Below are positions 5,862 to 33,420 of a DNA stretch of 64,000 bases, in pieces; the first letter of the stretch is position 1; every line of letters starts with the position of its first letter. The stretch comes from Candidatus Eiseniibacteriota bacterium (GTDB lineage Bacteria; Eisenbacteria; RBG-16-71-46; CAZAMP01). The notes under the pieces were generated by a model. That model saw only the letters and a list, made by a program, of their open reading frames with translations. It did not search any database and was not told where the DNA came from. A program made the position numbers and the translations under genes. The DNA is taken from assembly GCA_965224245.1 (NCBI GenBank), contig OZ245046.1, positions 5,115,583 to 5,179,582 of the forward strand, written 5' to 3'.

Positions 5862-6212
5862 TCAGCGCATGCGGCGCCGCGCGTGGACGGCGAGTCCCGC
5901 GAGCCCCAGGCCGATCAGTGCGACCGAGGCGGGCTCGGGAATCGGCCTGGCTCCGCCGGGCGACGCCGCGACCAGGAGCCGGTTGCCCGTCTCCTCGCCT
6001 CCCAACGTCACCCGATCGCCGAGCGCCCCGAGCGCCCCGAGCGCCGGCTCGGCGTGCGGCTCATCCAGGCGACCCTCGTAGCCAGCCTCCGCCGGCGCTC
6101 CGCCGGGATGACTCGCGAGCTCACAGACGTACGGTGCCGCGCCGGCCGTCGACGCGGTAGCGGCGCTCAGTCCGACGACCAGCATCAGTCGCCCGAGCGA
6201 TGTCACGTGCAT
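5862..6212 (-). CDS. Small secreted PEP-CTERM sorting-domain protein
   Basis: Signal peptide MHVTSLGRLMLVVGLSAATASTAGA. C-terminus is IPEPASVALIGLGLAGLAVHARRRMR (PEP motif, TM helix, basic tail). GAGGAAGGA lies upstream of the ATG. Confidence 0.7.
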   Translation of the reverse strand: MHVTSLGRLMLVVGLSAATASTAGAAPYVCELASHPGGAPAEAGYEGRLDEPHAEPALGALGALGDRVTLGGEETGNRLLVAASPGGARPIPEPASVALIGLGLAGLAVHARRRMR

Positions 6213-6618
6213 GATGTCAATCCTTCCTCGAGCCGACCGCGCCGGTGCTCCCGGCCGATCGACCGCGTCCCGATGTCGTGTCCTGCTACGGTGCGTGCGA
6301 TGTCGTGGCTCCTTTCCGAGCGCTGCGGGCGCTCTCGGGGCAACTCGTCGTGCGGCAGGCCGACGTCACCCCCGAAGGGGTGTCAGGAGTACGGATCGCG
6401 CGTGCGAGTTCCGGCGGCGAACGCTCCGTTCGATCGTCCAAGTGATGTTGGATCAATACGTTGACAGCGATCGTGGGCGTCGTCTCGCGGTCGCGGCAGC
6501 GTCTCGCGGCATCTGTCTAGACGCCGTGACACCGGAGAAGGTCACATGAGGATCTCGTGTGGGGGCCGACGCCGGCGCGGTCGAGAGAGACCGGGCCGGT
6601 GCGTCGGAGCGGGGGTGT

Positions 6619-8334
6619 CTAGCTGGCGCGCACCAGTCGCACCGATCCCGCAACGCGGCCGTCGACCCGGATGCGGACGAAGTACACGCCGGCTCCGACG
6701 CGAGCGCCGCGCGTGTCGTCGCCGTTCCAGCTCAGCTCGGTGACGCCTCGGGTCACGGCGAGCCCGACGGCGAGTCGCCGCACGAGTCGTCCCTGCGCGT
6801 CCACGACCTCCGCCGACACGCGTGCGTCGGTGTCGAGGTCGAACGCGATGCGGGCCACGTCGCCCGACGGGTTTGGCGTCAGCAGACGGAGCGCGATCGC
6901 ATCGGCGAGATCGACGCTCGGGTCACCCACCGCGATCACGGCCTCCGCCTCGTCGGAGAAGATCGACTCGTTGAAGTCGGTGTCGTAAGCCGACACCGAG
7001 ACGAGAAAGGCGTCCGTGGTCGGCAGGCCTCCGATCGAGAACTCCTGGACGGGACCGGCGTCGAGACCGGCGTCCAGCACGTCGTAGTAGAACGTCGAGT
7101 CGACGCCGGCGCGTCTCAGCGCCACCCGGTAGCCCGCCAGGTCGGGCGCGGTGGTGACGCTCGGCCAGGTCACGTTCAGGTTGCCGTCGCCCAGATCCTC
7201 GACGCTCGGCATCGACGGTCGCTCCGGGGCCAGGGCGAGGTTCGCGAACGCGGCCAGGTTGAGACGCGTGACGCGTGCGAGGTAGGGGAAGTTCATGTAC
7301 TCGATCAAGTCGTCACCGTTGTGCTGGTGCCCGACCGACCCATCGCCGACCCCGTCCTCGTTGGCCTCGGTGAACCGCGCGGCCGCGAAGCCCCGATTCC
7401 CGAAGGGGATGTGATCGCCGCCGCGTCCCGGGCGGTCCTGGCGCAGGATCATCGTCACCTCGAACTCGCTCATGTACCGCAGCCCGGCCAGCTTGATCGC
7501 GCGCGCGAGCTGGCGGCTCGACGACGTGTCCGGTCCCCGCGAGAAGTGACGCACGCTCATCGAGTCGACGATGACCGGCTCCCCGTCCGGACAGGCCGGG
7601 TTCGCACAGCCGACGATGTTGCCGACGATGTCGTTGGTGACCATGCCGTCGAGGCGAAGTCCGCTCGTGTCGGCGAACACCGCGTAGCGCGTCGAGCCGA
7701 TCAGTCCGTTCTCCTCACCGGTGAACGCGAGCAGGAGGAGGCTCGCGTCGAGGTCGGTGCCGGCGAGAACCCGGCTCATCTCGAGAACGGCGGCCACGCC
7801 GCTCCCATCGTCGTTCGCCCCCGGCGCCGCCGAGGACGCGTCGCAGTTGTCGACGATGCGCGAGTCCATGTGTCCGCTGACCAGGAAGTGTCGTTCGGGC
7901 TGGAGCGTGCCCACCTTGTCGTTGACCACGTTGCGATGCGTGGTCGTGAACATGCACGTCTGCGCGACGAACGAGAAGTAGCTCGGCGCCATGTTGCTGC
8001 CGGGTGTGGAGGCGTGCGCGTCGAAGCGGCTGCGGATCCAGCGTCGCGCGGCACCGATGCCCACGGTGGACGAGACCGTGTCCGAGTTCATGTGCCGCGT
8101 GTGGAAGCCGACCAGCCGCTGCACGTAGCTCTGGAGGCTGTCGGCGGAGACGTCTTCGAGGAGCGCGGCGATCGTGGGGTTGGCGGGCAACGAGCTCGAG
8201 AACGGCGTTCCCCTGGACACGGCGTCGCCGTCACCTGCGGTGCGGGTTCCTCCAGCCCGGATGACCAGAGAGGTCGTGATGACGGCGGCCACCACCAGGA
8301 TCATGCGTGTGCGAGCTGAACGACGTTCCACCAT
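6619..8334 (-). CDS. M28 family aminopeptidase with a FlgD/T9SS-type C-terminal domain
   Basis: M28 metal-ligand motifs (SGHMDS, NDDGSGVAAVLE, FTGEENGLIGS). C-terminus is NPSGDVARIAFDL...AEVVDAQGRLVRRL...GAGVYFVRIRVDG. Confidence 0.85.
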   Translation of the reverse strand: MVERRSARTRMILVVAAVITTSLVIRAGGTRTAGDGDAVSRGTPFSSSLPANPTIAALLEDVSADSLQSYVQRLVGFHTRHMNSDTVSSTVGIGAARRWIRSRFDAHASTPGSNMAPSYFSFVAQTCMFTTTHRNVVNDKVGTLQPERHFLVSGHMDSRIVDNCDASSAAPGANDDGSGVAAVLEMSRVLAGTDLDASLLLLAFTGEENGLIGSTRYAVFADTSGLRLDGMVTNDIVGNIVGCANPACPDGEPVIVDSMSVRHFSRGPDTSSSRQLARAIKLAGLRYMSEFEVTMILRQDRPGRGGDHIPFGNRGFAAARFTEANEDGVGDGSVGHQHNGDDLIEYMNFPYLARVTRLNLAAFANLALAPERPSMPSVEDLGDGNLNVTWPSVTTAPDLAGYRVALRRAGVDSTFYYDVLDAGLDAGPVQEFSIGGLPTTDAFLVSVSAYDTDFNESIFSDEAEAVIAVGDPSVDLADAIALRLLTPNPSGDVARIAFDLDTDARVSAEVVDAQGRLVRRLAVGLAVTRGVTELSWNGDDTRGARVGAGVYFVRIRVDGRVAGSVRLVRAS

Positions 8335-8528
8335 GCGGGCCCCCTTGCTGGCGAATCCGGCCGATCGAGAGTGAACTTCGTTCGAAGTCTACCAGCTCGG
8401 CCGGAACCGCGGGGGCGCCCGCCGGGGCCGGCGCTCGGATCGGCATCCCCGGCGGGCGCCCGCTCCGGCTTGACGCGACGGTCGAAAGCCCGTATCGGTC
8501 CCCGCGCACCGCCGGCGAGACGAGGGCC

Positions 8529-15602: not shown

Positions 15603-16391
15603 ATGCGATGTCACGAGGTCGACTACCGCATCCACGGCGACGACATGCAGATGGTCGAGGTCGAGCTCGACCCCGGGGAGACGGTCATCGCCGAGGCCGG
15701 CGCGATGAACTTCATGGCCGACGGCATCACGTTCGAGGCCAAGATGGGCGACGGCTCGAAGCCCGACGAGGGGCTCTTCGGAAAGCTCCTCAACGTCGGC
15801 AAGCGCGTGCTCACGGGGGAGTCGATCTTCCTGACGCACTTCACGCACCAGGGCTCGGGCAAGAGCCACGTGACGTTCGCCGCGCCCTACCCGGGCAAGG
15901 TCATCCCGCTGGACATGGCGGCCATCGGCGGCGAGATCGTCTGCCAGAAGGACTCGTTCCTGTGCGCGGCCCTCGGCACCGAGGTCTCGATCGCGTTCAA
16001 CCGGCGACTGGGCACCGGGTTCTTCGGTGGCGAGGGGTTCATTCTTCAGCGGCTCCGCGGCGACGGCATGGCGTTCCTGCACGCGTGCGGCACGATCGTC
16101 GAGAAGGAGCTCACCGGTGACCGGCTCCGCGTGGACACCGGCTGCCTCGTCGGGTTCACGCCCGGGATCGACTACGACATTCAGCGCGCGGGCAATCTGA
16201 AGTCGATGTTCTTCGGCGGAGAGGGGCTCTTCCTGGCCACGCTCACCGGGCACGGTCGCGTGTGGCTGCAGAGCCTGCCGTTCTCGCGGCTCGCCGATCG
16301 GATTCTCGCGCACGCCCCGCGCGCCGGGGGCTCCCGCAAGGGCGAGGGCTCCGTGCTCGGCGGCCTCGGCGATCTGATCGGCGGAGACTGA
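15603..16391 (+). CDS. AIM24 / TIGR00266 family protein
   Basis: N-terminus is [31 protein letters not shown]. The protein ends in a Gly-rich tail ([14 protein letters not shown]), typical of this family. Confidence 0.8.
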
Positions 16392-16434
16392 CGCGCGGCG
16401 CGGCACTCGCGTCCACTCCGGTGGAGGAACGACG

Positions 16435-17163
16435 GTGACGAACGACCTGATGGAGCGGGAGCTCGGCCTCGTCGAGCTCCTCGGTGCGACGTTCGCGACC
16501 GTCCGCCGCAACTTCGCGACCTTCGGACTCATCGCGCTGCTGCCGTTCGTGCCGATCTTCCTCCAGTACCATCTGATGCCCGCCTTCTCCATGGACGTGA
16601 ACGTCCTCGACCACCTCGGATCGCTCTACGGCGTGTTGCTCCTGCAGTGCCTGGTGATGCCGTTCGTGTACGGCGCGGTGGCCGGCATCACCGAGGCCGA
16701 CGTTCACGGCAACGAGCTCACCGCCGGCGAGGCCCTCCGGGTGGGCGCGCTACGCTGGCTCCCGCTGGTGATCACCGGGATCATGTACTGGTTGGTGACG
16801 TTCGTGGGGATGCTCCTGCTGTTGATCCCGGGCATCGCGGCCCTGGTCTACTTCGGACTCTGCTGGCCGGCGGTCGCGCTACGCGGGTACGTCGGCGTCG
16901 ACGCCATGCGCGCGAGCTGGGAGCTGGTGAAGGATCGCTGGTGGCGTGCCTTCGGGTTCTACCTGCTTCTCTCGGCCATCTTCTGGACGACGTCGTTGTT
17001 GCTCCTGCCGGTGACGCTCTTCGCGCCCCCGACGATCGCGTCGTTCGTCTCGTCCGCGGTGTCGGCGTTCTGGCAGGTGGTGATGATGACGGGCATCACG
17101 TTCTTCTTCCTCAACCACGACTACCTGCAGAACGGCACCCACGTCTCGGACGTCGTCGCCTGA
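16435..17163 (+). CDS. Integral membrane protein of unknown function (DUF975 / GDPD-membrane-domain-like topology)
   Basis: Five to six predicted TM helices and G/C-ending codons. GTG start 6 nt after GGAGGA. Confidence 0.65.
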   Translation: MTNDLMERELGLVELLGATFATVRRNFATFGLIALLPFVPIFLQYHLMPAFSMDVNVLDHLGSLYGVLLLQCLVMPFVYGAVAGITEADVHGNELTAGEALRVGALRWLPLVITGIMYWLVTFVGMLLLLIPGIAALVYFGLCWPAVALRGYVGVDAMRASWELVKDRWWRAFGFYLLLSAIFWTTSLLLLPVTLFAPPTIASFVSSAVSAFWQVVMMTGITFFFLNHDYLQNGTHVSDVVA

Positions 17164-17189
17164 CCCCGGTGCCGGGCACCGACCCCTCC

Positions 17190-17808
17190 GCCCGCTCCGC
17201 GAGGCCGTGACCTCCGCCTCGCACCGCCGCCGAAAAGCGCGTCCGTCCCGCCAGAACTCGGTCCGATGCCCGGTACATCAGACACGAAGACGATGCAGGG
17301 ACGACAGAAACCAGTTACCAGACAGGGAGTTACGAGATGGCGATCTACTTGCAGTTCGACGGGATGACCGGAGAGGTCACGGCGGCGGGTCACGAGGGCT
17401 GGATCGAGCTCGAGTCGTTCAGCTGGGGTGTCGGCCGCGGGATCATCATGCAGACCGGAGCCAGCAAGGACCGCGAGGCGTCGGCGCCGTCGCTGTCGGA
17501 GGTGACGGTGACCAAGCAGATGGACGAGACGTCGCCGTACTTCTTCACCGAGGCGTGCGTGGGCAAGGGCAAGACGGCGACGATCCACTTCGTGAAGACC
17601 GGCGAGGAGCTGGAGACGTACATGGAGTACGTGCTGAGCGACGTGATGGTGTCGGGGTACTCGGTGTCGTCGGGCGGGGATCGCCCGGCGGAGTCGATCT
17701 CACTGAGCTTCACGAAGATCGAGACGAAGTACACGCCGTACGACGACGCGCACGCGGCCACGGCGCCGATCCCGGCCGGCTACAACCTGGCCACCGGCAA
17801 GATGGTCT
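17190..17808 (+). repeat. Tandem duplication, copy A (leader plus hcp)
   Basis: Aligns without gaps to 18114..18732 at a 924-bp offset. I saw only a handful of substitutions: three in the leader and one synonymous change in the CDS. Confidence 0.9.
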
Positions 17809-17810
17809 AG
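17337..17810 (+). CDS. hcp: Type VI secretion tube protein Hcp family
   Basis: MAIYLQFDGMTGEVTAAGHEGWIELESFSWGV... then ...LSEVTVTKQMDETSPYFFTEA...ESISLSFTKIETKY, the typical Hcp1 (PF05638-like) pattern. GGGAG lies upstream. Confidence 0.9.
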   Translation: MAIYLQFDGMTGEVTAAGHEGWIELESFSWGVGRGIIMQTGASKDREASAPSLSEVTVTKQMDETSPYFFTEACVGKGKTATIHFVKTGEELETYMEYVLSDVMVSGYSVSSGGDRPAESISLSFTKIETKYTPYDDAHAATAPIPAGYNLATGKMV

Positions 17811-17858
17811 GGCCACTGCTCCTGACGCGCGTCCCTCGGGGCGCGCGCGGCCCCTCTC

Positions 17859-17907
17859 CCGGGGCGGGACCCCGCGACACCTCGCCACACACAAGGTCCC
17901 GCCCCGG
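17859..17907 (+). terminator. Long-loop hairpin after hcp copy A
   Basis: ccggggcgggacc ... ggtcccgccccgg: 13-bp perfect stem with a 23-nt loop. Confidence 0.3.
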
Positions 17908-18113
17908 TCTTCGCTCTCCCCGCCCCGCTTCGGTGACACCGCTCCACCGTCATTGACCTTCCCACGTGCTTCGATCGCCGCCCGACGCCACCGGTGCAAC
18001 GCCACCAGGCCAACGCCACCAGGGCAACGCCATCGCCCGGGTCACGTCCGAGCTCACGACCGAGCCGATCGCGCGCCCGGAGCGGAGGCGGTCCGGATCC
18101 GGACGCACGTCGT

Positions 18114-18732
18114 GCCCGCTCCACGAGGCCGTGACCTCCGCCTCACACCCCCGCCGAAAAGCGCGTCCGTCCCGCCAGAACTCGGTCCGATGCCCGGTAC
18201 ATCAGACACGAAGACGATGCAGGGACGACAGAAACCAGTTACCAGACAGGGAGTTACGAGATGGCGATCTACTTGCAGTTCGACGGGATGACCGGAGAGG
18301 TCACGGCGGCGGGTCACGAGGGCTGGATCGAGCTCGAGTCGTTCAGCTGGGGTGTCGGCCGCGGGATCATCATGCAGACCGGAGCCAGCAAGGACCGCGA
18401 GGCGTCGGCGCCGTCGCTGTCGGAGGTGACGGTGACCAAGCAGATGGACGAGACGTCGCCGTACTTCTTCACCGAGGCGTGCGTGGGCAAGGGCAAGACG
18501 GCGACGATCCACTTCGTGAAGACCGGCGAGGAGCTGGAGACGTACATGGAGTACGTGCTGAGCGACGTGATGGTGTCGGGGTACTCGGTGTCGTCGGGCG
18601 GGGATCGCCCGGCGGAGTCGATCTCACTGAGCTTCACGAAGATCGAGACGAAGTACACGCCGTACGACGACGCACACGCGGCCACGGCGCCGATCCCGGC
18701 CGGCTACAACCTGGCCACCGGCAAGATGGTCT
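18114..18732 (+). repeat. Tandem duplication, copy B (leader plus hcp)
   Basis: See copy A. The stop codon differs (TGA here, TAG in copy A) and similarity ends just before it. Confidence 0.9.
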
Positions 18733-18734
18733 GA
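18261..18734 (+). CDS. hcp: Type VI secretion tube protein Hcp family; protein identical to the copy at 17337
   Basis: The 157-aa translation is identical to the first copy in the supplied track. Confidence 0.9.
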   Translation: MAIYLQFDGMTGEVTAAGHEGWIELESFSWGVGRGIIMQTGASKDREASAPSLSEVTVTKQMDETSPYFFTEACVGKGKTATIHFVKTGEELETYMEYVLSDVMVSGYSVSSGGDRPAESISLSFTKIETKYTPYDDAHAATAPIPAGYNLATGKMV

Positions 18735-18814
18735 CGCCGGAACCCCCGGGCGGCGCGCCACCCCCGGCGCGTCGCTCGCCACGACATCGATCCCACCACA
18801 CCGCCCTCCCCCGA

Positions 18815-18850
18815 GAGCCGGGGTCCGTCCGACGGGACGAGCCCCGGCTC
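18815..18850 (+). terminator. Hairpin after hcp copy B
   Basis: gagccgggg ... ccccggctc: 9-bp outer stem with additional inner pairing. Confidence 0.35.
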
Positions 18851-18977
18851 CCTCCTTGCCCCCGAGGCGAGGTCGCCGGTGCCGAATCCAGCTGTGCGAT
18901 TCCATTCCCCGGGCCCGTTACCTGGATGAAGGCCGAGCAGGGTACGACATCCAACCCCGATGGGAGACGGACGAAAG

Positions 18978-19445
18978 ATGGGCATGTATCTGAAGTACGA
19001 GGGCGTCGAGGGGCCGATCACGGCCAGCGACTACAAGGGCTGGATCGAGATCGACTCGTTCGAGTTCGAGGTGAAGCGCGGTGAGTATGTCATGCTGGGA
19101 AACGGCACCAACAAGGCCACGAGCATCACCGGGGCCAAGATGACCAAGAAGGCCGACGGTGCGACCACGGCCCTGATGCGCGAGGCGTTTCGCGGCGCCG
19201 TGCGCGAGGATGCCCGGGTCCGGTTCGTCACCGGCGGCGAGCTCGTCGATCCGTACCTGGAGTTCGACTTCGATCGGGTAGTGCTGGCGTACTACGCCAT
19301 CGAGACCGTGAACGGCGCCCCGGTCGAGACGTTCGTCATGGAGTACGAACGGCTTCGATCCACCTACACCCCCCGGGACGCGACGGGCAAGCTCGACGCG
19401 CAAATTCCGGCCGGCTACGACCTGAAGGCGGGCACGCCGCTGTGA
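18978..19445 (+). CDS. hcp: Divergent Hcp family paralog
   Basis: MGMYLKYEGVEGPITASDYKGWIEIDSFEFEV aligns position-by-position with the N-terminus of the other two copies. The C-terminal ...YTPRDATGKL..IPAGYDLKAG aligns in parallel. The start was chosen by that alignment; the track ORF starts at 18960. Confidence 0.85.
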   Translation: MGMYLKYEGVEGPITASDYKGWIEIDSFEFEVKRGEYVMLGNGTNKATSITGAKMTKKADGATTALMREAFRGAVREDARVRFVTGGELVDPYLEFDFDRVVLAYYAIETVNGAPVETFVMEYERLRSTYTPRDATGKLDAQIPAGYDLKAGTPL

Positions 19446-19474
19446 GACGACGGCGGCCGCGCGGCTGTCGTCTC
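19444..19474. terminator. Hairpin between the convergent hcp3 and thrS genes
   Basis: gagacgac ... gtcgtctc: 8-bp stem around a GC-rich palindromic loop. It begins within the hcp3 stop codon. Confidence 0.4.
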
Positions 19475-19515
19475 CGCGGGACGAACGGTCGGCACGTCGC
19501 GCTCGGTGATGAGCG

Positions 19516-21594
19516 TCAGACGCCGGACGTGACCGCCGTATCGGACATCAGCTCCCGCCGCGCGATCTCGCCGGTGAGCGCGACCACGAACTCGTCCAGC
19601 GGTCGCGCGCCCAGATCGCCCTCGCCTCGACGCCGCACCGACACCGTGCGGGCGTCACGGTCGCGTCCGCCCACGATCAGGAGATACGGGATCCGCATCT
19701 CGGAGCCGGCCTTCACCTTCGCGGTGACCCGCTCGTCGCTCTCGTCGATCTCGGCGCGGACGCCGGCGTCGATCAGCGTCCGGAACACCTCGCGCCCGTA
19801 GTCGGTGAACTTCTCGCTGACCGGCAGCACGCGCGCCTGCACCGGCGCCAGCCAGGCGGGGAACGCCCCCGCGAAGTGCTCGATCAGGATGCCCACGAAC
19901 CGCTCGAACGATCCGAAGGGCGCCCGGTGGATCATGACCGGTCGATGCGGCTTGTTGTCCGGGCCGATGTACGACAGATCGAACCGCTCGGGCAGGTTGT
20001 AGTCCACCTGCACGGTCCCGAGCTGCCACTCGCGTCCGATCACGTCGCGGGCCACGAAGTCGATCTTGGGGCCGTAGAACGCCGCCTCGCCGGGCTCCAT
20101 GGTGTACGGCGCGCCCAGGGTCTTCGCCGCCGCCTCGCACGCGGCCTCGGCGCGAACCCACTTCTCGGCCTCGCCGGCGTACTTGTCGCTCTCGGGGTCG
20201 CGGAGGCCGACGCGCACGCGATAGTCGTGCATGCCGAGCGTACCCAGGATCAGCTTCACGAGGCTCAGACAGCCCAGAAGCTCCTCGGCGACCTGGTCCT
20301 CGGTGCAGAAGAGGTGCGCGTCGTCCTGGGTGAACCCGCGGACGCGGGTCATGCCGCTCAGCTCGCCCGACTGCTCCCAGCGATACACCGTCCCGAACTC
20401 GGCCAGCCGGATCGGCAGATCACGGTAGCTGTGCGGCTCGTTCGCGTAGATCTTGATGTGGTGCGGGCAGTTCATGGGCTTGAGCAGAAACCCCTCGATG
20501 TCGCCGGTGCGCATGTCGTTGCACAGCTCGGCGCACGAGCAGCTCCTCTCGACCATGTCCCGCAGGTGTTCGCCGTGCACGAGCGGCGGATACTGGCTGT
20601 CCTGGTAGTACGGGAAGTGACCGGACGTCTTGAACAGATCCAGCTTGCCGATGTGGGGCGTGTAGACCTGACGGTAGCCCTGCTTGACGAGCTCGGCGCG
20701 TATGAACTCCTCGAGCTCGCGGCGGATGACCGCGCCGTTCGGCTTCCACAGGATGAGCCCCTGGCCCACCGCCTCGTCGATGTGAAAGAGTCCGAGCTTC
20801 TTGCCGAGCACGCGGTGATCGCGCCTCCTGGCCTCCTCGATCGCCTCGAGGTGTGCCGCGAGCTGTCGCGGGTGCGGGAACGCGGTCCCGTAGACGCGGG
20901 TCAGGCTGTCCGAGTCGGCATCGCCGTGCCAGTACGCCGACGCGAGCGACATGACCTTGTACGCCCCGATGCGTCCGGTGCTGGGGACGTGCGGTCCGCG
21001 GCAGAGATCCTCGAAGTCGCGGCCCGGCTCACCGGTGGCGTACCAGGACAGCGCGTCGGAGCCGGCCTCCACCGCGCGCTCGGCGTTGTCGAGCTTGTAC
21101 TTCGAGCCCTCGTCGCGGAGCTTCCGCATGCCTTCGTCGACGGGGAGCTCGTACCGGGTGAAGGCGCGATCCTCGGCGATGATCGCGGCCATCTCCTTCT
21201 CGATGGCGTCGAAGTCGTCCGAGCTCAGCGGGCGCGCATCGGGGATGTAGATGTCGTAGTAGAACCCGGTGTCCACGGGGGGGCCGTACACGAGGAGCGC
21301 GTCCGGAACGAGGCGCTGGATCGCCTCGGCCATCACGTGGGCGGCGCTGTGTCGCACGAGGAAGAGAGCGTCGTCCGAAGGGGTGTCCTTCGGACCGCCG
21401 GGCGTCACGATGGAGAGCTCCGCGTCGGTGTCGATCGGACGCGAAAGGTCGGTCAGCTCTCCGTTGACGCGGGCACCGATGGCGGCCTTGGCCAGCCCCG
21501 GGCCGATGTCGGCCGCCACGCGGGCGGCGCTCACCGGTGCGTCATACTCGCGGACGGTTCCGTCCGGAAGTGTGATGCGCGGCATGTGACTCCT
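19516..21594 (-). CDS. thrS: Threonine--tRNA ligase
   Basis: MPRITLPDGTVREYD (TGS domain), an HSAAHVMAEA editing-domain motif, class II core motifs and an anticodon-binding C-terminus. AGGAG lies upstream of the ATG at 21594. The track ORF extension to 22440 is off-gene. Confidence 0.95.
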   Translation of the reverse strand, partial: RSHMPRITLPDGTVREYDAPVSAARVAADIGPGLAKAAIGARVNGELTDLSRPIDTDAELSIVTPGGPKDTPSDDALFLVRHSAAHVMAEAIQRLVPDALLVYGPPVDTGFYYDIYIPDARPLSSDDFDAIEKEMAAIIAEDRAFTRYELPVDEGMRKLRDEGSKYKLDNAERAVEAGSDALSWYATGEPGRDFEDLCRGPHVPSTGRIGAYKVMSLASAYWHGDADSDSLTRVYGTAFPHPRQLAAHLEAIEEARRRDHRVLGKKLGLFHIDEAVGQGLILWKPNGAVIRRELEEFIRAELVKQGYRQVYTPHIGKLDLFKTSGHFPYYQDSQYPPLVHGEHLRDMVERSCSCAELCNDMRTGDIEGFLLKPMNCPHHIKIYANEPHSYRDLPIRLAEFGTVYRWEQSGELSGMTRVRGFTQDDAHLFCTEDQVAEELLGCLSLVKLILGTLGMHDYRVRVGLRDPESDKYAGEAEKWVRAEAACEAAAKTLGAPYTMEPGEAAFYGPKIDFVARDVIGREWQLGTVQVDYNLPERFDLSYIGPDNKPHRPVMIHRAPFGSFERFVGILIEHFAGAFPAWLAPVQARVLPVSEKFTDYGREVFRTLIDAGVRAEIDESDERVTAKVKAGSEMRIPYLLIVGGRDRDARTVSVRRRGEGDLGARPLDEFVVALTGEIARRELMSDTAVTSGV

Positions 21595-25881: not shown

Positions 25882-28800
25882 TCATCGGACGACGACCACG
25901 CGCCCCCCAGTGGTGGATCGACCGGCACGGAGCCGGTAGTAGTACACGCCAGCCGGGACGACCTCGCCGCGGTGGTCACGGCCATCCCAGCGAAGCGACC
26001 TGGGCCCCGGGTCCGAACGGGCATCGGTCTCGAGCACGCGAACGAGTGCGCCGCCGACGTCGAACACGTCGCAGCGGACCGGCCCGGACTCGGCCGTCGA
26101 GAAGCGGATCGACGTCGACACCCGAAACGGGCTCGGCACCGCCCGGGCGCCGAGCCGCCGCGCGGCCGGGGCCGCCACCTCGGGACCGTGGAGGAGCGCA
26201 TCTCCGCGGATCCACACGTCGCCGAGCACGCCCCCGGCGTCGCCTCCGAGCACGACGAGCCCGCGACCGGGTACCACGTCCGCGCTGTGGAGCCGTCTGG
26301 CGACCGGAGAGACCTCGTCGTCCAGTAGCTCCCACGACGTCCCGTCGCTCAGCCACGCGTCGGACAGGTACAGGCCATCGGCCACGCCGCCGTGGACGTA
26401 GACGACGTCGCAGTCCGCGTCGTACGCCATGCGGTGGTGTCCCCGGGCGCTCGGCCCCGCGGTCCCGAGGCTCGTCCAGGTCGCGCCGTCGTAGCTCCAG
26501 TGTGCATCGCTCTCGTCGCCGCCCGGGAGGATCCCGCCGAACATGTGGATGTGTCCCCGGGCACTCGCGTACACCATCTGATGCCCGGACCTGGAACCCG
26601 GGGGGCTCGACTGGATGACGCGCGTCCACGTCACGCCGTCGTACTCGAACGTGGAGTCGGATCGCCCCGAGCCGCTGTCACCGCCGTAGAGCACCGTCAC
26701 GCCCCGCGCTGCATCGTACGCGAGGCCGACGCTGCGAAGCGCCGGGCCGGTGTCGGTGACGTACGTCCAGCTCTCCCCGTCCCACTCCCACGTGTCGTCG
26801 AGGTTCCCGCTCGCGCCGCTGCCGGAGATCATCACGATCACCTCCCGCACGGCGTCGTAGACCATCGACGCGGAGGAGCGCGCCGGCGGGCGAACCGCGG
26901 GCATCCGCTCGGACCACGCCTCGCCGCTCCAGACCCACGTGTCGTCGAGACGGCTGGTGCCGTCGAACCCGCCGAACAGGACGAGCTCGTCGCGAGCCGC
27001 ATCGTACGCGGTCGCATGTCCGGAGCGTGGGCTGGGTCCGGCGGCCCGTTCCGTCCACACCGGCATGCCGAGGCATCGCTCTGCGCTGTCGCAGTGCTCG
27101 GGCAGGATCGCGAGCCCCTCGGCGGTGGCCACGTAGAGGTTCTCGCCAAACGTGACGAGATCCGTCGGCACCCAGGCGATCGCGGCCGCTCCGATCCGCT
27201 GAACGGCGGCCGGGTCGCCGACGTCGAGGACCTCGATCCCGCGATCGTGGTTCGTGTTGGCGCCGTAGCTCACGTATGCGACGTCGCCGTCGATCGCGAC
27301 CCCCACAGCTCCGGCCGGCGTGCGATACGTGTCGACGAGCACGGGCGCGAGCGGATCGGAGACGTCGATGATCTGAAGTCCGAGGTACCCGTCCGCGATG
27401 AACGCCGTCGAGCCGACCACCTCGATGTCGTGCGCCTCCGCGTCGACCCACGTCAGTCCCGCAACATGCAGCGGAGCCGATGGATCACCGACGTCGACGA
27501 CCTCGAGGCCACCGTTTTCGCGTGCGACGTAGGCCATCGTCCCGACGACGTCGACACGCCACGCCTGACCCGGAACCGCGGCACTCCCGACGATTGCGGG
27601 TGCGTTCGGGTCACTCACGTCGATGACCTGGAGATCACCGAGATCGTCCGCGACGTACGCGTACGTGCCGACGACGTCGACACCGGCGGCGCTCCCCGGG
27701 GTGACCACGGACCCGAGAGCGACCGGCGTCAACGGGTTGCTCACATCCAGGATCACCAGACCTTCCGCGAGCGCCGCGACGTAGGCCAGCGGTCCGACGA
27801 TCTCGACATCGCTGGCGGATGCCGGCGACGCCGCCTCGAGGAGCACGGTCGGTGCGGTCGGGTCGGAGACGTCCACGATCGCGAGCCCCTCGGCAGGTGT
27901 GGCCAGGAACGCGTTGTCGTCGACGACCGCGACCGCGTACGCTGACGTGTATGCGTCGATGAACCCGACGGGCTCGACCGCCACCGGAGGTGCCACGTCG
28001 AGGGTCTCGACGTGCCCCTCGTCGTGGGGGTAGTTCACGGTGACGTACACGGTGCCGGATGCGACGTCGATGCCCCGTCCCATCTCGCCCAGCACGTCGA
28101 CCTCGTACGCCACCTCCGGAGCGCTCGGGTCGGTGACGTCCATGATGCAGATCCCTCCGGCCAGCGCTGCGTACACGATGCCATCGGACACGGCGACGTC
28201 CACGACGTCGGATGTCCCCGGCAGGCTTCCGAGCGCGGTCGGGTTCGTCGGATCGGATACGTCGAAGGTCTCGAAGAAGTACACGCCCGCGACGTACGCG
28301 ATGTCGCCGTCCAGCACGACATCGCGCCCGATACCGGCCAGGGGCACGCTGCCGATCTCGTACGCGAGCGCGGGGTCGGAAGCCTCGATGACGTGAAGGG
28401 TCCCGCTCTGGGTGGGCACGTAGACGAGCGAGCCGGACACCGCCAGCCCGACCGTGTACGCGTCGACGAACGGAACGGTGGCCACCTCCGTGGGCGCATC
28501 CGGATCGCTCACGTCGAAGACGTGGAGGCCGTCGGAGAAGTCCGCGACGAAGGCGGCGGTGCCGGAGACCTCGACGTCGAACGCATCGCCCGGGGTCGCG
28601 CTCACGCCCCGCAACGTCGGCGCCGCGGGGTCGGAGACGTCCACGATCCGGAACCCCGCCGGGCCGTCGCCCACGTACGCGAGGCCGCCCACGACGTCCA
28701 CGCCGAACGCCCAGCCCGGCGTGTCCACCGACCCGACGACCACGGGGGCCGTGGGGTCGGTCACGTCCAGGATCACGAGTCCTGCTTCTGCCGCAGCCAC

Positions 28801-29028
28801 GTACGCGAGGTCGCCGCTGACGACGATGTCCTCGACGTCCGTACCGAACAGTGCCTGGCCGACCCGGTGTGCGTACGCACCGTAGTCGATGCACTGGGCG
28901 CCGGCGTCCCGCGGCAGGCTCAACGGGAGAACGCCGACACCGAGAGCCACGATCCAGGTCCGGGCGGCTCCGAGGGAGCATTCGCGAACACGCGCCAGTG
29001 GCGCGACGCGACGTGTGTGCTGGCTCAT
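25882..29028 (-). CDS. Large secreted protein with LVIVD repeats, Kelch-type repeats and a FlgD/T9SS-type C-terminal domain
   Basis: More than 10 repeats of the form Y-V-A-x-x-x-x-G-L-x-I-(L/V/I)-D-V-(S/T)-D-P-x-x-P. These are followed by Kelch-like units (PSPRSGHATAYD...LVLFGG, RSGHQMVY.., ARGHHRMAYD..) and the C-terminus FDVGGALVRVL...WDGRDHRGEVVPAGVYYYRLRAG. Confidence 0.85.
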   Translation of the reverse strand: MSQHTRRVAPLARVRECSLGAARTWIVALGVGVLPLSLPRDAGAQCIDYGAYAHRVGQALFGTDVEDIVVSGDLAYVAAAEAGLVILDVTDPTAPVVVGSVDTPGWAFGVDVVGGLAYVGDGPAGFRIVDVSDPAAPTLRGVSATPGDAFDVEVSGTAAFVADFSDGLHVFDVSDPDAPTEVATVPFVDAYTVGLAVSGSLVYVPTQSGTLHVIEASDPALAYEIGSVPLAGIGRDVVLDGDIAYVAGVYFFETFDVSDPTNPTALGSLPGTSDVVDVAVSDGIVYAALAGGICIMDVTDPSAPEVAYEVDVLGEMGRGIDVASGTVYVTVNYPHDEGHVETLDVAPPVAVEPVGFIDAYTSAYAVAVVDDNAFLATPAEGLAIVDVSDPTAPTVLLEAASPASASDVEIVGPLAYVAALAEGLVILDVSNPLTPVALGSVVTPGSAAGVDVVGTYAYVADDLGDLQVIDVSDPNAPAIVGSAAVPGQAWRVDVVGTMAYVARENGGLEVVDVGDPSAPLHVAGLTWVDAEAHDIEVVGSTAFIADGYLGLQIIDVSDPLAPVLVDTYRTPAGAVGVAIDGDVAYVSYGANTNHDRGIEVLDVGDPAAVQRIGAAAIAWVPTDLVTFGENLYVATAEGLAILPEHCDSAERCLGMPVWTERAAGPSPRSGHATAYDAARDELVLFGGFDGTSRLDDTWVWSGEAWSERMPAVRPPARSSASMVYDAVREVIVMISGSGASGNLDDTWEWDGESWTYVTDTGPALRSVGLAYDAARGVTVLYGGDSGSGRSDSTFEYDGVTWTRVIQSSPPGSRSGHQMVYASARGHIHMFGGILPGGDESDAHWSYDGATWTSLGTAGPSARGHHRMAYDADCDVVYVHGGVADGLYLSDAWLSDGTSWELLDDEVSPVARRLHSADVVPGRGLVVLGGDAGGVLGDVWIRGDALLHGPEVAAPAARRLGARAVPSPFRVSTSIRFSTAESGPVRCDVFDVGGALVRVLETDARSDPGPRSLRWDGRDHRGEVVPAGVYYYRLRAGRSTTGGRVVVVR

Positions 29029-29163
29029 GAGATCCTCCTGACGCCGTCCGCTGTCGGCGCAAGCGGGCGCGCGACGCGGTCACGGTCTCTGGAGAATCGA
29101 GCGCAAACACGCCCCGAAACCCGACACGGGGATCAGCGAAACCGGTAACACAATGTCAGTGAG

Positions 29164-30995: not shown

Positions 30996-32522
30996 TCAGC
31001 GGAGGCGGACCACGGTGCCGGGAACGCTGGCGCCGCCGGTCGTGACGCGGGTGTAGTAGATGCCCGGTGGCGCGACGAGTCCGACCGCGTCGCGGCCGTC
31101 CCAGACGATGCCGGCGCTACCGGTGCCCGTGAGCGTCCGGACGTGACGTCCACCGACCGAGAAGAGCTCGACGCGCACGTCTGCCGTGTCGCCGCCGGGC
31201 GGCACCAGCATCGTCGACGCCCGGAACGGATTGGGCACCGCCCGCGTGACTGCGGCGCCCGCCGTCGCGACATCGGGTGCGGCCACCGTCGTGACGTACA
31301 CGAGCGTCGTGTTCAGGTTCACGCGGCCGTAGCCGTAGTAGTCGTCGCGACCGGGGAGATCCTGGGCCGGAGAGCCGACCTCGTCCTCGGCGCCGGCGAT
31401 CAGGAACGTGCGGAACACGTCGTGCGTCATGGCCGGGTCGAGCGCCCGGGCCAGCGCCGCGATGCCCGACACGATGGGCGTCGCCGCCGAGCAGCCCGAG
31501 AAGAGATCCCGGTCGTCGACCTCGCTGCCGTAGGCGACCGTGATGACGCTGTTGCCAGGCGCGACCACGTCGAGGCTGGCCCCGGTGGCCGAGGAGCCGG
31601 AACGCCAGTCGTCGTCGCGCGTCCAGCCCACCGAGATCGTGTGCGGCGACGCGCCGGGCCACGTGTCGTCGGCGCCACCGATCCCATCGTTGCCACCGCA
31701 GGCGACCAGAATGGCCCCGTTGTCCCGTGCGCCGGCCAGCGCGTCCTCGAGCGCGGTGACGTTGGGGTAGTTGATCAGGCTCATGTTCACGACGTCCACG
31801 TCCCGGCTCGCGACGTAGTCCAGCGCCTGGATGAGGCTGAACGTGGTTCCGATGAGGTTCTCGTCGAGAACGCGCACCGGCATCAGCGAGCAGCCGTGGT
31901 CGACCCCGGCGACCCCGAAGTCGTTGTCGGCGTCGGCGGCCAGCAGTCCGGCCACGTGAGTTCCGTGCCCGTGGAGGTCGTTGGGATTCGGATCGGTGTC
32001 GACGAAGTCGAAGCCGGCGACGATGCGCCCGGCGAACTCCGGATGATCCAGCTCGATGCCGGAGTCCAGCACCGCCACGACGACGTCGCCCGAGCCGCGC
32101 GTGATCTCCCAGCCCTCGGTGGCGTCGATGTCCGCATCGGCCTCGCCGCCGGACTGACCGGTGTTGTCGAGGTGCCACTGCTCGTCGAAGTAGGTGTCGC
32201 CGGGGAGGATCTCGCCGCCCGTGCCCGTGTAGTTGGGCATCGCGGAGACCACGAGCGGATCGCGCTCGAGCGCATCCAGCGTCGCCATGAAGTCGCGCCC
32301 CTCGGGCACGCTCACGAGGGCCAGCGATCGCGGCGGGTGAGTGCGCTCCAGCGTCACCCCGACCCGGTCGGCCACGTCGTGAACGACGGACTCGGAAGGC
32401 GATCCGGCGAACGAGACGATGATCTCGTCATGGACGTATGGGTAATCGAGGATCTCGGTCGCCGACGCGGACCCGGCAGCGAGCGCGGCGATCGCGACGG
32501 TCGTCGTGAGGCATGAGTACAT
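30996..32522 (-). CDS. S8 family (subtilisin-like) serine peptidase with a FlgD/T9SS-type C-terminal domain
   Basis: Catalytic triad context VAVLDSGI (Asp), HGTHVAGLL (His) and SGCSAATPIVSG (Ser). Signal peptide is MYSCLTTTVAIAALAAGSASA with GGGAGG upstream. C-terminus is NPFRASTML...ELFSVGGRHVRTL..WDGRD..PPGIYYTRV. Confidence 0.9.
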   Translation of the reverse strand: MYSCLTTTVAIAALAAGSASATEILDYPYVHDEIIVSFAGSPSESVVHDVADRVGVTLERTHPPRSLALVSVPEGRDFMATLDALERDPLVVSAMPNYTGTGGEILPGDTYFDEQWHLDNTGQSGGEADADIDATEGWEITRGSGDVVVAVLDSGIELDHPEFAGRIVAGFDFVDTDPNPNDLHGHGTHVAGLLAADADNDFGVAGVDHGCSLMPVRVLDENLIGTTFSLIQALDYVASRDVDVVNMSLINYPNVTALEDALAGARDNGAILVACGGNDGIGGADDTWPGASPHTISVGWTRDDDWRSGSSATGASLDVVAPGNSVITVAYGSEVDDRDLFSGCSAATPIVSGIAALARALDPAMTHDVFRTFLIAGAEDEVGSPAQDLPGRDDYYGYGRVNLNTTLVYVTTVAAPDVATAGAAVTRAVPNPFRASTMLVPPGGDTADVRVELFSVGGRHVRTLTGTGSAGIVWDGRDAVGLVAPPGIYYTRVTTGGASVPGTVVRLR

Positions 32523-32736
32523 CGACAAGATCAGCCTCCCCGGAATGTCGATCGGCGAGCCAGCGGGCAATGTTGCATGGAGCATATCACGTTCGGGGCG
32601 GGTCCGCGTCTCCGGGGTTCCGGTCGAGGGCTGCCCCGATCGGGGCGGATCAGGCCGACCGATCCCGTCGCGCCCCTGGGACGGGCCACGATGCGACGTT
32701 GACGTGCGTGGCCCACGGAACGGAGACTCGGCGATC

Positions 32737-33420
32737 ATGAACGTGTCGATCCTGATCGTCGAGGACGATCCTCGCATCGCCGAGCTGGTCTCGAAGAACC
32801 TCGACTCGGCCGGGTTCGTGTGTCACGTCACGCACTCCGGTGACGATGCGCTCGCCCAGTTCGAGGCCAGACGGCCGGATCTCGTCGTTCTCGACATCAT
32901 GCTGCCCGGAATGGATGGCCTCGAGATCACGCGGCGCCTCCGACGGCATTCCGACGTGCCCATCCTGATGCTGACCGCGCGTGCGGGCGAGGGCGACAAG
33001 GTCCTCGGATTCGAGCTCGGGGCCGACGACTACCTGACCAAGCCCTTCAGCACCCGCGAGCTGGTCGCACGGGTCCGCGCCCTGTTGCGCCGCACGTCGG
33101 CGGGCGGCCGGACCGGGGTGATCCGGCGCGGCGATCTCGTCGTGGATCCCGACCGGCGGGAGGTTCGCCGCGGCGACGAGGTCGTGCCGCTGACCACGCT
33201 GGAGTTCGATCTCCTCCTGGTGATGGCGACCCGGCCGGGGCGCGTGTTCTCGCGCGAGGCGCTGCTCTCCCATGTCTGGGGCTACGATCGCGTCGTGGAC
33301 GGCAGGTCGATCGACAGCCTCGTGAGCCGGCTGCGCCGAAAGCTGGAGGCCGATCCCGGGCATCCGACGTACGTGCAGACCGTCTGGGGGGCCGGGTACC
33401 GCTTCGCGGACGTTCCATGA
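32737..33420 (+). CDS. OmpR/PhoB-family response regulator
   Basis: Receiver domain (ILIVEDDP...[14 protein letters not shown]...LTAR) and a winged-helix C-terminus (...[11 protein letters not shown]). Confidence 0.9.

What the first reader, a model, noticed from the sequence alone, without database searches (positions are those of the whole stretch)
17190..19445. Orphan triplet of hcp genes, two inside a near-perfect 924-bp-period tandem duplication
Three consecutive Hcp-family genes sit between a membrane-protein gene and thrS. Copies 1 and 2 encode identical 157-aa proteins.

The duplicated block (17190..17808 and 18114..18732) includes about 147 nt of upstream leader, so any regulatory or 5'-UTR signals were duplicated too. 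I saw only a few substitutions: three in the leader, one synonymous change in the CDS, and TAG versus TGA at the stop. The 3' flanks are unrelated to each other. Copy 3 is a clearly divergent paralog.

No TssB/C, VgrG, PAAR, TssM, ClpV or recognisable effector/immunity pair occurs anywhere in the 64 kb. hcp genes are normally found in T6SS core clusters or hcp-vgrG-effector islands. A bare multi-copy hcp array next to an AIM24-family gene and a DUF-type membrane protein (15603..17163) is therefore unusual. It could be dosage amplification of the tube subunit, recent gene conversion, or a non-canonical use of the Hcp ring.
Basis: partly seen in the sequence, partly recalled or inferred. Interest (0 to 1): 0.7.

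Follow-up and report, generated by a model that had tools for sequence, protein, structure and literature searches.

The report
Stand-alone triple hcp gene array
Three genes for the tube protein (Hcp) of the bacterial type VI secretion "nano-harpoon" sit alone in a variable slot of a Planctomycetota (Phycisphaerae-like) chromosome; two are kept almost identical, most likely by gene conversion. This is a fairly ordinary auxiliary hcp locus, not a new kind of system.

Summary
Windows 17190-17808 and 18114-18732 are a 619-nt direct repeat with four substitutions, plus TAG versus TGA at the stop. Both copies encode the same 157-aa Hcp (PF05638, 127 bits). A third, divergent Hcp follows; its true start is 18978, giving 155 aa, 31% identity and 60 bits. 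None of the ORFs scanned with Pfam, and no tblastn search of the 64 kb, found a T6SS core gene, VgrG or PAAR.

- The closest relatives of Hcp1 outside this genome lie in canonical tssC..tssF-tssG-clpV-hcp-vgrG clusters, including in Planctomycetota MAGs.
- Bare orphan hcp genes and tandem arrays of 2-3 hcp copies occur in the same family.
- The window's own 6.45-Mb contig carries at least one more hcp paralog (79% identical).
- Relatives keep the surrounding backbone (M3 peptidase, HEAT/PPIase, PAH, AIM24 ... thrS, nitroreductase) but fill this slot with other genes.

The repeat is not a head-to-tail duplication, because the flanks share nothing. Divergence is concentrated at the repeat edges, which fits gene conversion.

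Hcp3 has no relative above about 35% identity among 1.84 billion representatives, yet its model has an Hcp fold.

I could not test whether a T6SS core exists elsewhere in the genome. Verdict: a new member of a known kind, of low to moderate interest.

The parts
16435..17163 (+). Neighbouring multi-pass membrane protein (weak DUF7847/UPF0259-YciC-like). It shares the variable slot with the hcp genes, but no functional link is shown.
   Evidence: Pfam gives 26.2 bits, below the 28.7 cutoff. Only three weak homologues were found among 5.8 billion clusters. Their contexts contain neither Hcp nor AIM24. The gene is absent from the syntenic region of relatives.
17190..17336 (+). Leader of hcp1 (repeat copy 1, non-coding part), with a GGGAG Shine-Dalgarno about 8 nt before the ATG.
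   Evidence: It is 98% identical to 18114-18260, differing at 17199, 17221 and 17226. It has no Rfam family, no significant RNA structure (z = -1.05), and no sigma-70 or sigma-54 consensus.
17295..17306 (+). Motif GCAGGGACGACA, 42 nt before the hcp1 ATG. The same motif lies at 18219-18230 before hcp2.
   Evidence: The pattern GCAGGG(N0-1)ACGACA occurs three times in the 64 kb, once before each hcp gene. Shuffles give an expectation of 0.01. The pattern was chosen post hoc.
17337..17810 (+). hcp1 (157 aa), T6SS tube protein family.
   Evidence: PF05638 at 127.3 bits, full length. It matches solved Hcp structures over their full length: EvpC 3EAA, and Hcp1 1Y12. Of the 120 homologues listed, the 118 from other contigs are 56-69% identical and all carry PF05638.
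17826..17847 (+). GC-rich hairpin 16 nt after the hcp1 stop. It is terminator-like but has no U tract.
   Evidence: RNA fold of 17808-17900: -47.6 kcal/mol, z = -2.63. Also reported as inverted repeat I6.
17811..18113 (+). Spacer between hcp1 and the second repeat copy. It is unrelated to the sequence after hcp2 and contains three 14-nt-period repeats at 17982-18032.
   Evidence: family D7; no similarity to 18735-18977 or to 16900-17189.
18114..18260 (+). Leader of hcp2 (repeat copy 2, non-coding part).
18261..18734 (+). hcp2, encoding the same 157-aa protein as hcp1. There is one synonymous difference (18674), and the stop is TGA.
18747..18850 (+). Two strong GC-rich hairpins after hcp2 (18747-18778 and 18815-18850).
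   Evidence: RNA fold of 18732-18860: -62.6 kcal/mol, z = -3.42; 0 of 200 shuffles fold as well.
18937..18949 (+). Motif GCAGGGTACGACA, 41 nt before the hcp3 ATG.
18978..19445 (+). hcp3 (155 aa; start revised from 18960), a highly divergent Hcp paralog.
   Evidence: PF05638 at 60 bits and 31% identity to Hcp1. It is collinear with the family apart from a 3-residue deletion in the extended loop. The AlphaFold2 model has pLDDT 85.8, with Foldseek TM 0.80-0.86 to solved Hcps. No representative exceeds about 35% identity among 1.84 billion. Its own 90% cluster has a single member.
19444..19474 (+). Hairpin immediately after the hcp3 stop, in the 70-nt gap to the convergent thrS stop (19516).
   Evidence: An 11-bp stem in the fold of 19443-19520. 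The region as a whole is not significant (z = -0.69).

Best explanation
This is an auxiliary ('orphan') hcp locus of a Phycisphaerae-like Planctomycetota genome. It consists of three separately equipped hcp genes, each with its own leader, Shine-Dalgarno and downstream hairpin. They sit in a hypervariable slot between the conserved PAH-AIM24 pair and thrS.

hcp1 and hcp2 supply the same tube subunit from two genes. The likely benefit is dosage, because the tube is expelled and lost at every firing. The two copies are kept identical, leader included, by gene conversion between old duplicates, not by a fresh head-to-tail duplication.

hcp3 is an old, fast-evolving paralog of the same family. It keeps the Hcp fold and may carry a different cargo or form a variant ring.

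The products are expected to be used by a T6SS whose sheath, baseplate and membrane genes lie elsewhere in the 6.45-Mb chromosome, probably next to the fourth paralog (P0002).

Shown: the repeat anatomy, family and fold membership, absence of partner genes in the 64 kb, the variable-slot synteny, the existence of a fourth paralog, and the canonical context of the nearest relatives. Inferred: gene conversion, the dosage role, separate transcription units, and the presence of a T6SS core elsewhere.
For: - Family and fold: PF05638 is well above cutoff for all three proteins. They match solved Hcps over full length. The Hcp3 model has TM 0.80-0.86 to Hcp crystal structures.
- Context of relatives: the nearest Hcp1 relatives with usable flanks lie in tssC..tssE-tssF-tssG-clpV-hcp-vgrG clusters. 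These are L045-L047, the Planctomycetota MAGs L003 and L004, and most of the about 90 same-family loci.
- Same genome: P0002, 79% identical to Hcp1, is on the same 6,451,234-bp contig.
- Precedent: bare orphans exist at L001, L060, L062 and L049, and hcp-vgrG islands at L050, L065-68 and L071. Tandem arrays of 2-3 copies at 86-95% nt identity occur in L005-L007 and L064. The literature treats orphan hcp loci as routine.
- Variable slot: a relative with 76% ThrS identity has M3 peptidase, HSP33, HEAT/PPIase ... PAH, AIM24, [CBAH, ACS], thrS, nitroreductase. Relatives at 79% ThrS identity have unknown and beta-helix genes 3' of thrS. None has hcp there.
- Gene conversion: the flanks of the 619-nt repeat share nothing. 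Three of the four substitutions fall in the first 37 nt (binomial P = 8e-4), and the remaining differences lie at the 3' edge. The central 523 nt are identical, including about 120 synonymous sites.
- Composition: GC and GC3 are typical of the genome, so this is not a recent foreign insertion.
- Separate units: each gene is followed by a strong hairpin.
Against: - No T6SS core gene, vgrG, PAAR or effector-immunity pair is present in the 64 kb.
- The rest of the genome could not be searched. It is absent from the genome and metagenome collections and from the contig index.
- The NCBIfam subfamily model TIGR03344 is not reached: 44 bits against 58.9 for Hcp1, and no hit for Hcp3.
- No recognisable promoter was found in the leader, so expression is unproven.
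- Hcp3 has lost many positions that are nearly invariant in the family. It could be decaying, not specialised.
- Gene conversion is inferred from the pattern only. A 619-bp copy inserted 305 bp downstream would look similar.
Confidence: 0.75

Rival explanations
1. Relic or T6SS-independent Hcp. The genome has no working T6SS, and these hcp genes are either leftovers of a lost system or are used for something else, such as a secreted or structural ring protein or a chaperone.
For: No partner gene lies within 17 kb upstream or 44 kb downstream. Hcp3 is a singleton without close relatives. A T6SS core elsewhere was not demonstrated. Abby et al. note that some genomes without T6SSi still carry small satellite clusters.
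Against: Two copies are kept identical at the protein level, with intact leaders, Shine-Dalgarno sites and hairpins, which is not what decay looks like. A fourth paralog at 79% identity sits in the same genome. Outside this genome, Hcp1 is 56-69% identical to homologues, and the closest ones with readable flanks sit in functional-looking clusters. No alternative partner is conserved: AIM24 and the membrane protein are not linked to hcp elsewhere. There is no PADLOC hit.
Confidence: 0.1
2. Very recent segmental duplication with no gene conversion. A 619-bp leader-plus-CDS segment was copied once and inserted 305 bp downstream, and the few differences have accumulated since.
For: CDS identity is 99.8%. 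The repeat boundaries coincide with one functional unit.
Against: Replication slippage or unequal crossing-over gives head-to-tail units that include the spacer, and no such similarity exists. The substitutions are not uniform: 3 of 37 nt at the 5' edge against 1 of 581 nt in the remainder (P = 8e-4). That is the edge-erosion pattern expected of conversion-maintained repeats. Tandem hcp copies in other lineages show mosaic identity, for example in L006, where copies 2 and 3 share 84% of the upstream region while the other pairs share about 60%.
Confidence: 0.12
3. Assembly artefact. The second copy was created by mis-assembly of one hcp gene.
For: Near-identical repeats of about 0.6 kb are a classic trouble spot, and read data are not available here.
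Against: The two copies differ at six positions, including the stop codon, and have entirely different flanks (305-nt and 243-nt spacers with different hairpins). An artefactual expansion would normally repeat the flanks too. The source is a single 6.45-Mb contig, which suggests long-read assembly.
Confidence: 0.03

Closest known systems
Orphan or auxiliary hcp loci of T6SSi-bearing bacteria. Examples are the orphan hcp genes described in Salmonella, Pantoea and Pseudomonas fluorescens/putida (papers listed). Abby et al. 2016 (PMC4793230) report satellite TssD/TssI/PAAR loci in 35% of T6SSi replicons.
   Same: The hcp genes lie far from any sheath, baseplate or membrane-complex gene. They belong to the PF05638 family. 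At least four paralogs occur in one genome.
   Different: Most described satellites carry vgrG, PAAR or an effector-immunity pair, whereas this one is bare. It sits in Planctomycetota, where T6SS has hardly been studied. The main cluster has not been seen.
Identical multi-copy hcp genes in model organisms: Vibrio cholerae hcp-1/hcp-2 and Pseudomonas aeruginosa hcpA/B/C (from my own knowledge, not checked here).
   Same: Two or more loci encode the same Hcp protein, which suggests dosage or redundancy and concerted evolution.
   Different: In those species each copy heads an hcp-vgrG operon at a separate locus. Here the copies are 924 nt apart, without vgrG, and the 147-nt leader is homogenised too.
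Tandem hcp arrays inside T6SS clusters of Inquilinaceae MAGs (L005, L006, L007) and metagenome contig L064, found here.
   Same: They belong to the same Hcp subfamily (about 55-60% identity to P0002). They have 2-3 consecutive copies, about 230-nt spacers, and high but mosaic identity.
   Different: Those arrays lie between clpV and vgrG in a full cluster and are 86-95% identical at the nucleotide level. The window's pair is 99.8% identical and stands alone.
Solved Hcp structures: EvpC (3EAA), P. aeruginosa Hcp1 (1Y12) and A. baumannii Hcp1 (4W64).
   Same: Hcp1 and Hcp3 align over the full length of these chains. The Hcp3 model has TM 0.80-0.86 to them.
   Different: Sequence identity to the Hcp3 model in the Foldseek alignments is only about 17-23%. 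Hexamer formation and lumen properties were not modelled.

Membership tests
Hcp / TssD (T6SS tube protein, Pfam PF05638) | Full-length match to PF05638 above the gathering score. | tested here: met
   Hcp1 and Hcp2 score 127.3 bits, and Hcp3 scores 60.0 bits, against a cutoff of 23.5. Profile positions 1-129 of 129 are covered.
Hcp / TssD (T6SS tube protein, Pfam PF05638) | Match to the NCBIfam subfamily model TIGR03344 (VI_effect_Hcp1) above its cutoff. | tested here: not met
   Hcp1 scores 44.4 bits and P0002 scores 41.3 bits, against a cutoff of 58.9. Hcp3 gives no hit. TIGR03344 models one subfamily only, so this excludes that subfamily label, not the Hcp family.
Hcp / TssD (T6SS tube protein, Pfam PF05638) | Hcp beta-barrel fold as in solved structures. 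| tested here: met
   The AlphaFold2 model of Hcp3 has pLDDT 85.8 and pTM 0.80. Foldseek top hits are all Hcp, with E of 2e-12 and TM 0.80-0.86. Hcp1 was tested by sequence only: it matches 15 solved Hcp chains, full length for the best hits.
Hcp / TssD (T6SS tube protein, Pfam PF05638) | Forms hexameric rings that stack into a tube inside the TssBC sheath and is secreted in a T6SS-dependent way. | not testable with these tools
   This needs multimer modelling or experiment.
Hcp / TssD (T6SS tube protein, Pfam PF05638) | The same genome encodes T6SS core genes (tssA-M, vgrG). | not testable with these tools
   None is present in the 64-kb window. The rest of the 6.45-Mb contig is not held in any searchable collection. 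Indirect support comes from a fourth Hcp on the same contig and from family members elsewhere that sit in full clusters.
Auxiliary hcp-vgrG-effector island | hcp is accompanied by vgrG, PAAR or an effector-immunity pair. | tested here: not met
   No Phage_GPD, PAAR, DUF4150, Rhs or known effector domain was found in any scanned ORF. There is no VgrG hit by tblastn. The intergenic gaps of 303 and 243 nt are too small for an effector.
Orphan (bare) hcp locus | hcp lies outside any T6SS cluster, with unrelated housekeeping neighbours. | tested here: met
   The neighbours are PAH, AIM24, a membrane protein, thrS and a nitroreductase. The same backbone occurs without hcp in relatives.
Head-to-tail tandem duplication | The whole period (924 nt) is repeated, spacer included. 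| tested here: not met
   Only 619 nt are shared. The spacer 17811-18113 has no similarity to 18735-18977 or to 16900-17189.

The most novel reading that the evidence does not exclude
The genome has no T6SS core at all. In that case the array of two conversion-maintained identical Hcps plus the singleton Hcp3 would be used independently of a contractile sheath, for example as a secreted ring or chaperone. Hcp3 would then represent a new functional offshoot of the Hcp fold. A weaker variant is that a T6SS exists, but Hcp3 forms a specialised or hetero-oligomeric ring for a lineage-specific cargo.
Probability: 0.07. Interest if true: 0.6.

Novelty: new member of a known kind. Interest (0 to 1): 0.22.

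Why it matters
The locus is a clean, small example of concerted evolution of a secretion-system structural gene, with the 5' leader homogenised as well. It occurs in a phylum, Planctomycetota/Phycisphaerae, where T6SS biology is essentially unexplored. It also shows that hcp copy number can be expanded away from the main cluster without vgrG or effectors.

None of this changes how T6SS is understood. The practical value is in annotation: the hcp3 start should be revised, and the three genes should be labelled tssD paralogs in a variable slot. The locus also gives a reason to check the rest of this genome for its T6SS cluster.

The side observation of single-chain proteins with six Hcp domains may be of more interest than the locus itself.

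Tried and rejected
1. Fetching the rest of the genome failed.
- The exact-protein contig look-up found nothing for Hcp1 or P0002.
- Scans of the genome collection with Hcp1 and P0002 did not return the source genome.
- The metagenome scan gave no relative above 65% identity.

2. I considered using contig length (6,451,234 bp) as a fingerprint to find T6SS core proteins of the same genome through a homologue search, then dropped the idea.
- The window's Hcp lineage sits on a long branch, and no relative of P0002 exceeds 72% identity.
- Core proteins of the nearest candidate donor (the Kangiella-type cluster L002) are only 25-35% identical to other clusters.
- A profile query did not rank P0002 near the top in a local test.
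- The target was therefore unlikely to appear among the 120 hits listed.

3. I tested whether AIM24 or the membrane protein is a functional partner of Hcp, and rejected both.

4. Searches of the leader all came back negative: Rfam found no family in the window, there is no significant fold, and there is no sigma-70 or sigma-54 consensus. The two 'sigma-54-like' hits at 17338 and 18262 overlap the start codon and are not promoters.

5. A defence-system reading found no PADLOC hit.

6. There is no integration hot-spot signature: no tRNA in the window and no GC anomaly.

7. The 167- and 171-aa genes 3' of thrS in the closest relatives are not hidden Hcps.

8. The high rank of giant multi-Hcp proteins in the Hcp3 search does not mean a special relationship. 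Six weak domain scores simply add up.
Full report
**Observation**

The ORF list, the repeat finder, a MAFFT alignment and a base-by-base comparison agree. Window 17190-17808 and 18114-18732 are collinear without gaps, at an offset of 924 nt. The differences are G/A at 17199, G/A at 17221, G/C at 17226, a synonymous G/A at 17750, and the stop codon (TAG at 17808-17810 versus TGA). Both copies encode the same 157-aa protein.

A third ORF follows. Its real start is almost certainly ATG 18978 (MGMYLKYEG..., 155 aa), not 18960. That start aligns with the family N-terminus MAIYLK.... The 155-aa sequence is also the one held in the protein collections, whereas the 161-aa version is not.

Only 619 of the 924 nt are repeated. 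The 305-nt spacer after copy 1 shares nothing with the 243 nt after copy 2 or with the 290 nt before copy 1. This is a direct repeat of one gene unit, not a head-to-tail tandem duplication.

**Family**

- All three proteins match Pfam PF05638 (T6SS_HCP) across the whole profile. Hcp1 and Hcp2 score 127.3 bits and Hcp3 scores 60.0 bits, against a cutoff of 23.5.
- The narrower NCBIfam model TIGR03344 is not reached. Hcp1 scores 44.4 bits against 58.9, and Hcp3 gives no hit. They are therefore Hcp-family proteins outside that particular subfamily.
- Both proteins match solved Hcp chains over nearly their whole length. The matches include EvpC 3EAA, P. aeruginosa Hcp1 1Y12, Salmonella Hcp and A. 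baumannii Hcp1.
- An AlphaFold2 model of Hcp3 (pLDDT 85.8, pTM 0.80) retrieves only Hcp structures at the top of a Foldseek search of the PDB, with E of 2e-12 and TM 0.80-0.86.
- Hcp3 is 31% identical to Hcp1. It is collinear with the family except for a 3-residue deletion in the extended loop. It has replaced many nearly invariant positions but keeps the C-terminal IPAGYDL motif.

**Surroundings in the window**

I called ORFs by codon-position GC and scanned those picked against Pfam. The window encodes the following:
- ExbB/ExbD/TonB and type III glutamine synthetase.
- Several secreted peptidases with C-terminal FlgD_ig domains, and an M3 peptidase.
- A HEAT/cyclophilin protein, phenylalanine-hydroxylase-like PAH and AIM24.
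- A weak DUF7847/UPF0259-like membrane protein, then the three hcp genes.
- Convergent thrS, a nitroreductase and an MFS transporter.
- An ABC exporter, a histidine kinase, OmpA, PyrF and two ECF sigma factors.
- Aconitase, glycosyltransferases, PEPCK and others.

No T6SS core gene, VgrG, PAAR, Rhs or recognisable effector-immunity pair was found. A tblastn of TssC, ImpE, TssE, TssF, TssG, ClpV and VgrG (taken from related loci) against the whole window also found nothing. Rfam found no RNA family, ARAGORN found no tRNA, and the GC profile across the array is unremarkable.

**Organism**

The best named homologues of ThrS are from Planctomycetota, Phycisphaerales and Phycisphaeraceae MAGs at 69-73% identity. 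Unnamed metagenomic relatives reach 79%. The window comes from a single contig of 6,451,234 bp.

**What relatives show**

1. A homologue search with Hcp1 found a second cluster on the same 6.45-Mb contig. This is P0002, 157 aa and 79% identical. The genome therefore has at least four hcp genes. P0002 is closer than Hcp1 to outside relatives (about 72% against 68%). That fits P0002 being the older copy, with the pair in the window derived from it.

2. The closest Hcp1 relatives outside this genome with usable flanks sit in the canonical T6SSi order tssC-(impE)-tssE-tssF-tssG-clpV-hcp-vgrG. These are L045, L046 and L047 and two Planctomycetota MAGs, L003 and L004. By tblastn, most of the same-family loci fetched from genomes and metagenomes have this context.

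3. The same survey shows that the window's arrangement has precedents.
   - Bare orphans occur with up to 10 kb of non-T6SS flank on a side (L001, L060, L062), and L049 sits between bolA and a hydrolase.
   - There are hcp-vgrG islands (L050, L065-68, L071).
   - Tandem arrays of two or three copies at 86-95% nucleotide identity occur in Inquilinaceae MAGs and a metagenome contig (L005, L006, L007, L064).
   - The literature treats orphan hcp loci as a standard category. Abby et al. report satellite TssD/TssI/PAAR loci in 35% of T6SSi replicons.

4. Synteny shows a variable slot.
   - A relative with 76% ThrS identity (L053 and L054) has M3 peptidase, HSP33, HEAT/PPIase..., PAH, AIM24, [choloylglycine-hydrolase-family gene, ADP-forming acyl-CoA synthetase], thrS, nitroreductase.
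   - The window has the same backbone, with [membrane protein, hcp1, hcp2, hcp3] in the bracket.
   - The two closest relatives (79%; L052 and L103) carry a 167-171-aa protein of unknown family and beta-helix proteins 3' of thrS. Those small proteins are not Hcp.
   - The hcp array is therefore lineage-specific cargo of a hypervariable slot. AIM24 belongs to the conserved backbone, not to hcp.

5. The membrane protein has only three weak homologues among 5.8 billion clusters. Those sit next to a metal-dependent repressor, with no Hcp or AIM24 nearby. I found no evidence that it works with Hcp.

**How the repeat is maintained**

A recent slippage or unequal-crossover duplication would repeat the spacer too, and it does not. 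The substitutions are strongly non-uniform. Three lie in the first 37 nt and one in the remaining 581 nt before the stop (binomial P = 8e-4). The 3' edge carries the other differences, at 17750 and the stop codon. The central 523 nt are identical, including the proximal leader and about 120 synonymous sites.

High identity in the core with erosion at both edges of the homology block is the expected footprint of recurrent gene conversion between old duplicates. I favour that reading as an inference. A one-off insertion of a 619-bp copy is the main alternative.

The differing stop codons and the unrelated flanks, each with its own hairpins, argue against an assembly artefact. Reads were not available to check this.

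**Expression signals**

Each gene has a GGGAG-type Shine-Dalgarno. Each is followed within about 20 nt by a GC-rich hairpin:
- 17826-17847 after hcp1.
- 18747-18778 and 18815-18850 after hcp2.
- 19444-19474 after hcp3.

The first two regions fold significantly better than shuffles, with z = -2.6 and -3.4. This suggests three separate transcription units.

The 147-nt leader shows no significant structure (z = -1.05) and no sigma-70 or sigma-54 consensus. By contrast, the orphan hcp genes of L049 and L051 are preceded by a textbook sigma-54 box, TGGCACG-N4-CTGCA.

A 12-13-nt motif, GCAGGG(T)ACGACA, occurs only three times in the 64 kb. It lies 42, 42 and 41 nt before the three hcp start codons, against 0.01 expected. 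The pattern was chosen post hoc and two of the three occurrences are repeat copies, so it is only a lead for a shared regulatory site or transcript start.

**Hcp3**

A full HMMER scan of 1.84 billion representatives found nothing closer than about 35% identity. Ordinary single-domain Hcps score 60-75 bits. Hcp3's own 90% cluster contains only itself.

Hcp3 is therefore a lineage-specific, fast-evolved Hcp that still folds as Hcp. I cannot decide whether it is specialised (different cargo or a variant ring) or drifting.

**Conclusion**

The most likely reading (about 0.75) is an ordinary auxiliary hcp locus serving a T6SS encoded elsewhere in the chromosome. The hcp1/hcp2 pair is kept identical by gene conversion for dosage, and the third paralog is an old divergent copy.

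The one piece I could not obtain is the rest of the genome. It is absent from the genome and metagenome collections and from the contig index. An indirect search for its T6SS core proteins was judged unlikely to succeed.

If the complete genome had no T6SS core, the locus would become considerably more interesting. I put that at under 10%. Novelty: a new member of a known kind. Interest: low to moderate.

Noticed in passing
Not in the window: proteins P0242 (1009 aa), P0249 (1157 aa), P0243 (2164 aa) and P0244 (665 aa, partial; NCBI MEI8195936.1, Phycisphaerae MAG).: These are single polypeptides carrying six PF05638 Hcp domains, which is a whole tube ring's worth in one chain; the partial P0244 has four. 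About 30 of the 150 hits listed in the Hcp3 representatives search are such proteins with five or six matched stretches. No paper describing them turned up in two literature searches.
   Followed up: partly
L005 10001-11174; L006 10001-11895; L007 10001-11162; L064 1160-2333.: Tandem arrays of 2-3 hcp genes (86-95% nt identity) lie between clpV and vgrG in Inquilinaceae MAG T6SS clusters. In L006, copies 2 and 3 also share 84% of their upstream 150 nt, while the other pairs share about 60%. This suggests mosaic conversion there too.
   Followed up: partly
L049 about 3166-3181; L051 2093-2108.: The orphan hcp genes closest to P0002 are preceded, about 100-120 nt upstream, by a textbook sigma-54 box (TGGCACGCACCCTGCA and TGGCACGCAGGCTGCA). 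The window's hcp leaders have no such box.
   Followed up: no
Window 17295-17306, 18219-18230 and 18937-18949.: The motif GCAGGG(T)ACGACA occurs only before the three hcp genes, at -42, -42 and -41 from the ATG. Shuffles give 0.01 expected in 64 kb. It could be a shared regulatory or transcript-start element. The pattern was chosen post hoc.
   Followed up: partly
Window 17982-18032.: Three copies of a 14-nt-period repeat (consensus about CAACGCCACCAGG) lie in the spacer between hcp1 and the second repeat copy (family D7). Their meaning is unknown.
   Followed up: no
Window 19516-21585 (thrS) and its 3' side; L052, L053, L054 and L103.: The slot 3' of thrS holds different genes in each relative examined. 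The window has hcp x3 plus the membrane protein. The 76% relative has the acyl-CoA synthetase and CBAH genes. The 79% relatives have an unknown 170-aa protein and beta-helix proteins. This looks like a local hot spot of gene turnover in a conserved neighbourhood.
   Followed up: partly
Window 6622-8388 (-), 25885-29079 (-), 30999-32822 (-), 40155-42392 (-), 51186-54326 (+); also 5865-6365 (-).: Five large predicted exported proteins end in a FlgD_ig-like domain: M28, S8 and M6 peptidases, an LVIVD/Kelch beta-propeller protein and one protein of unknown family. This looks like a lineage-typical C-terminal sorting or anchoring tag. A small PEP-CTERM protein lies at 5865-6365.
   Followed up: no
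L002 versus L057 (Kangiella-type T6SS clusters).: Hcp is 98% identical between the two loci, while TssC is 76% and TssF only 56% identical. The core proteins of this cluster type are only 25-35% identical to those of the other fetched clusters. Hcp is far more conserved than, or has been exchanged independently of, the rest of the cluster.
   Followed up: no
Window 39194-39904 (-) and 46912-47628 (-).: Two paralogous ECF-type sigma factors with the same domain layout lie 7 kb apart.
   Followed up: no
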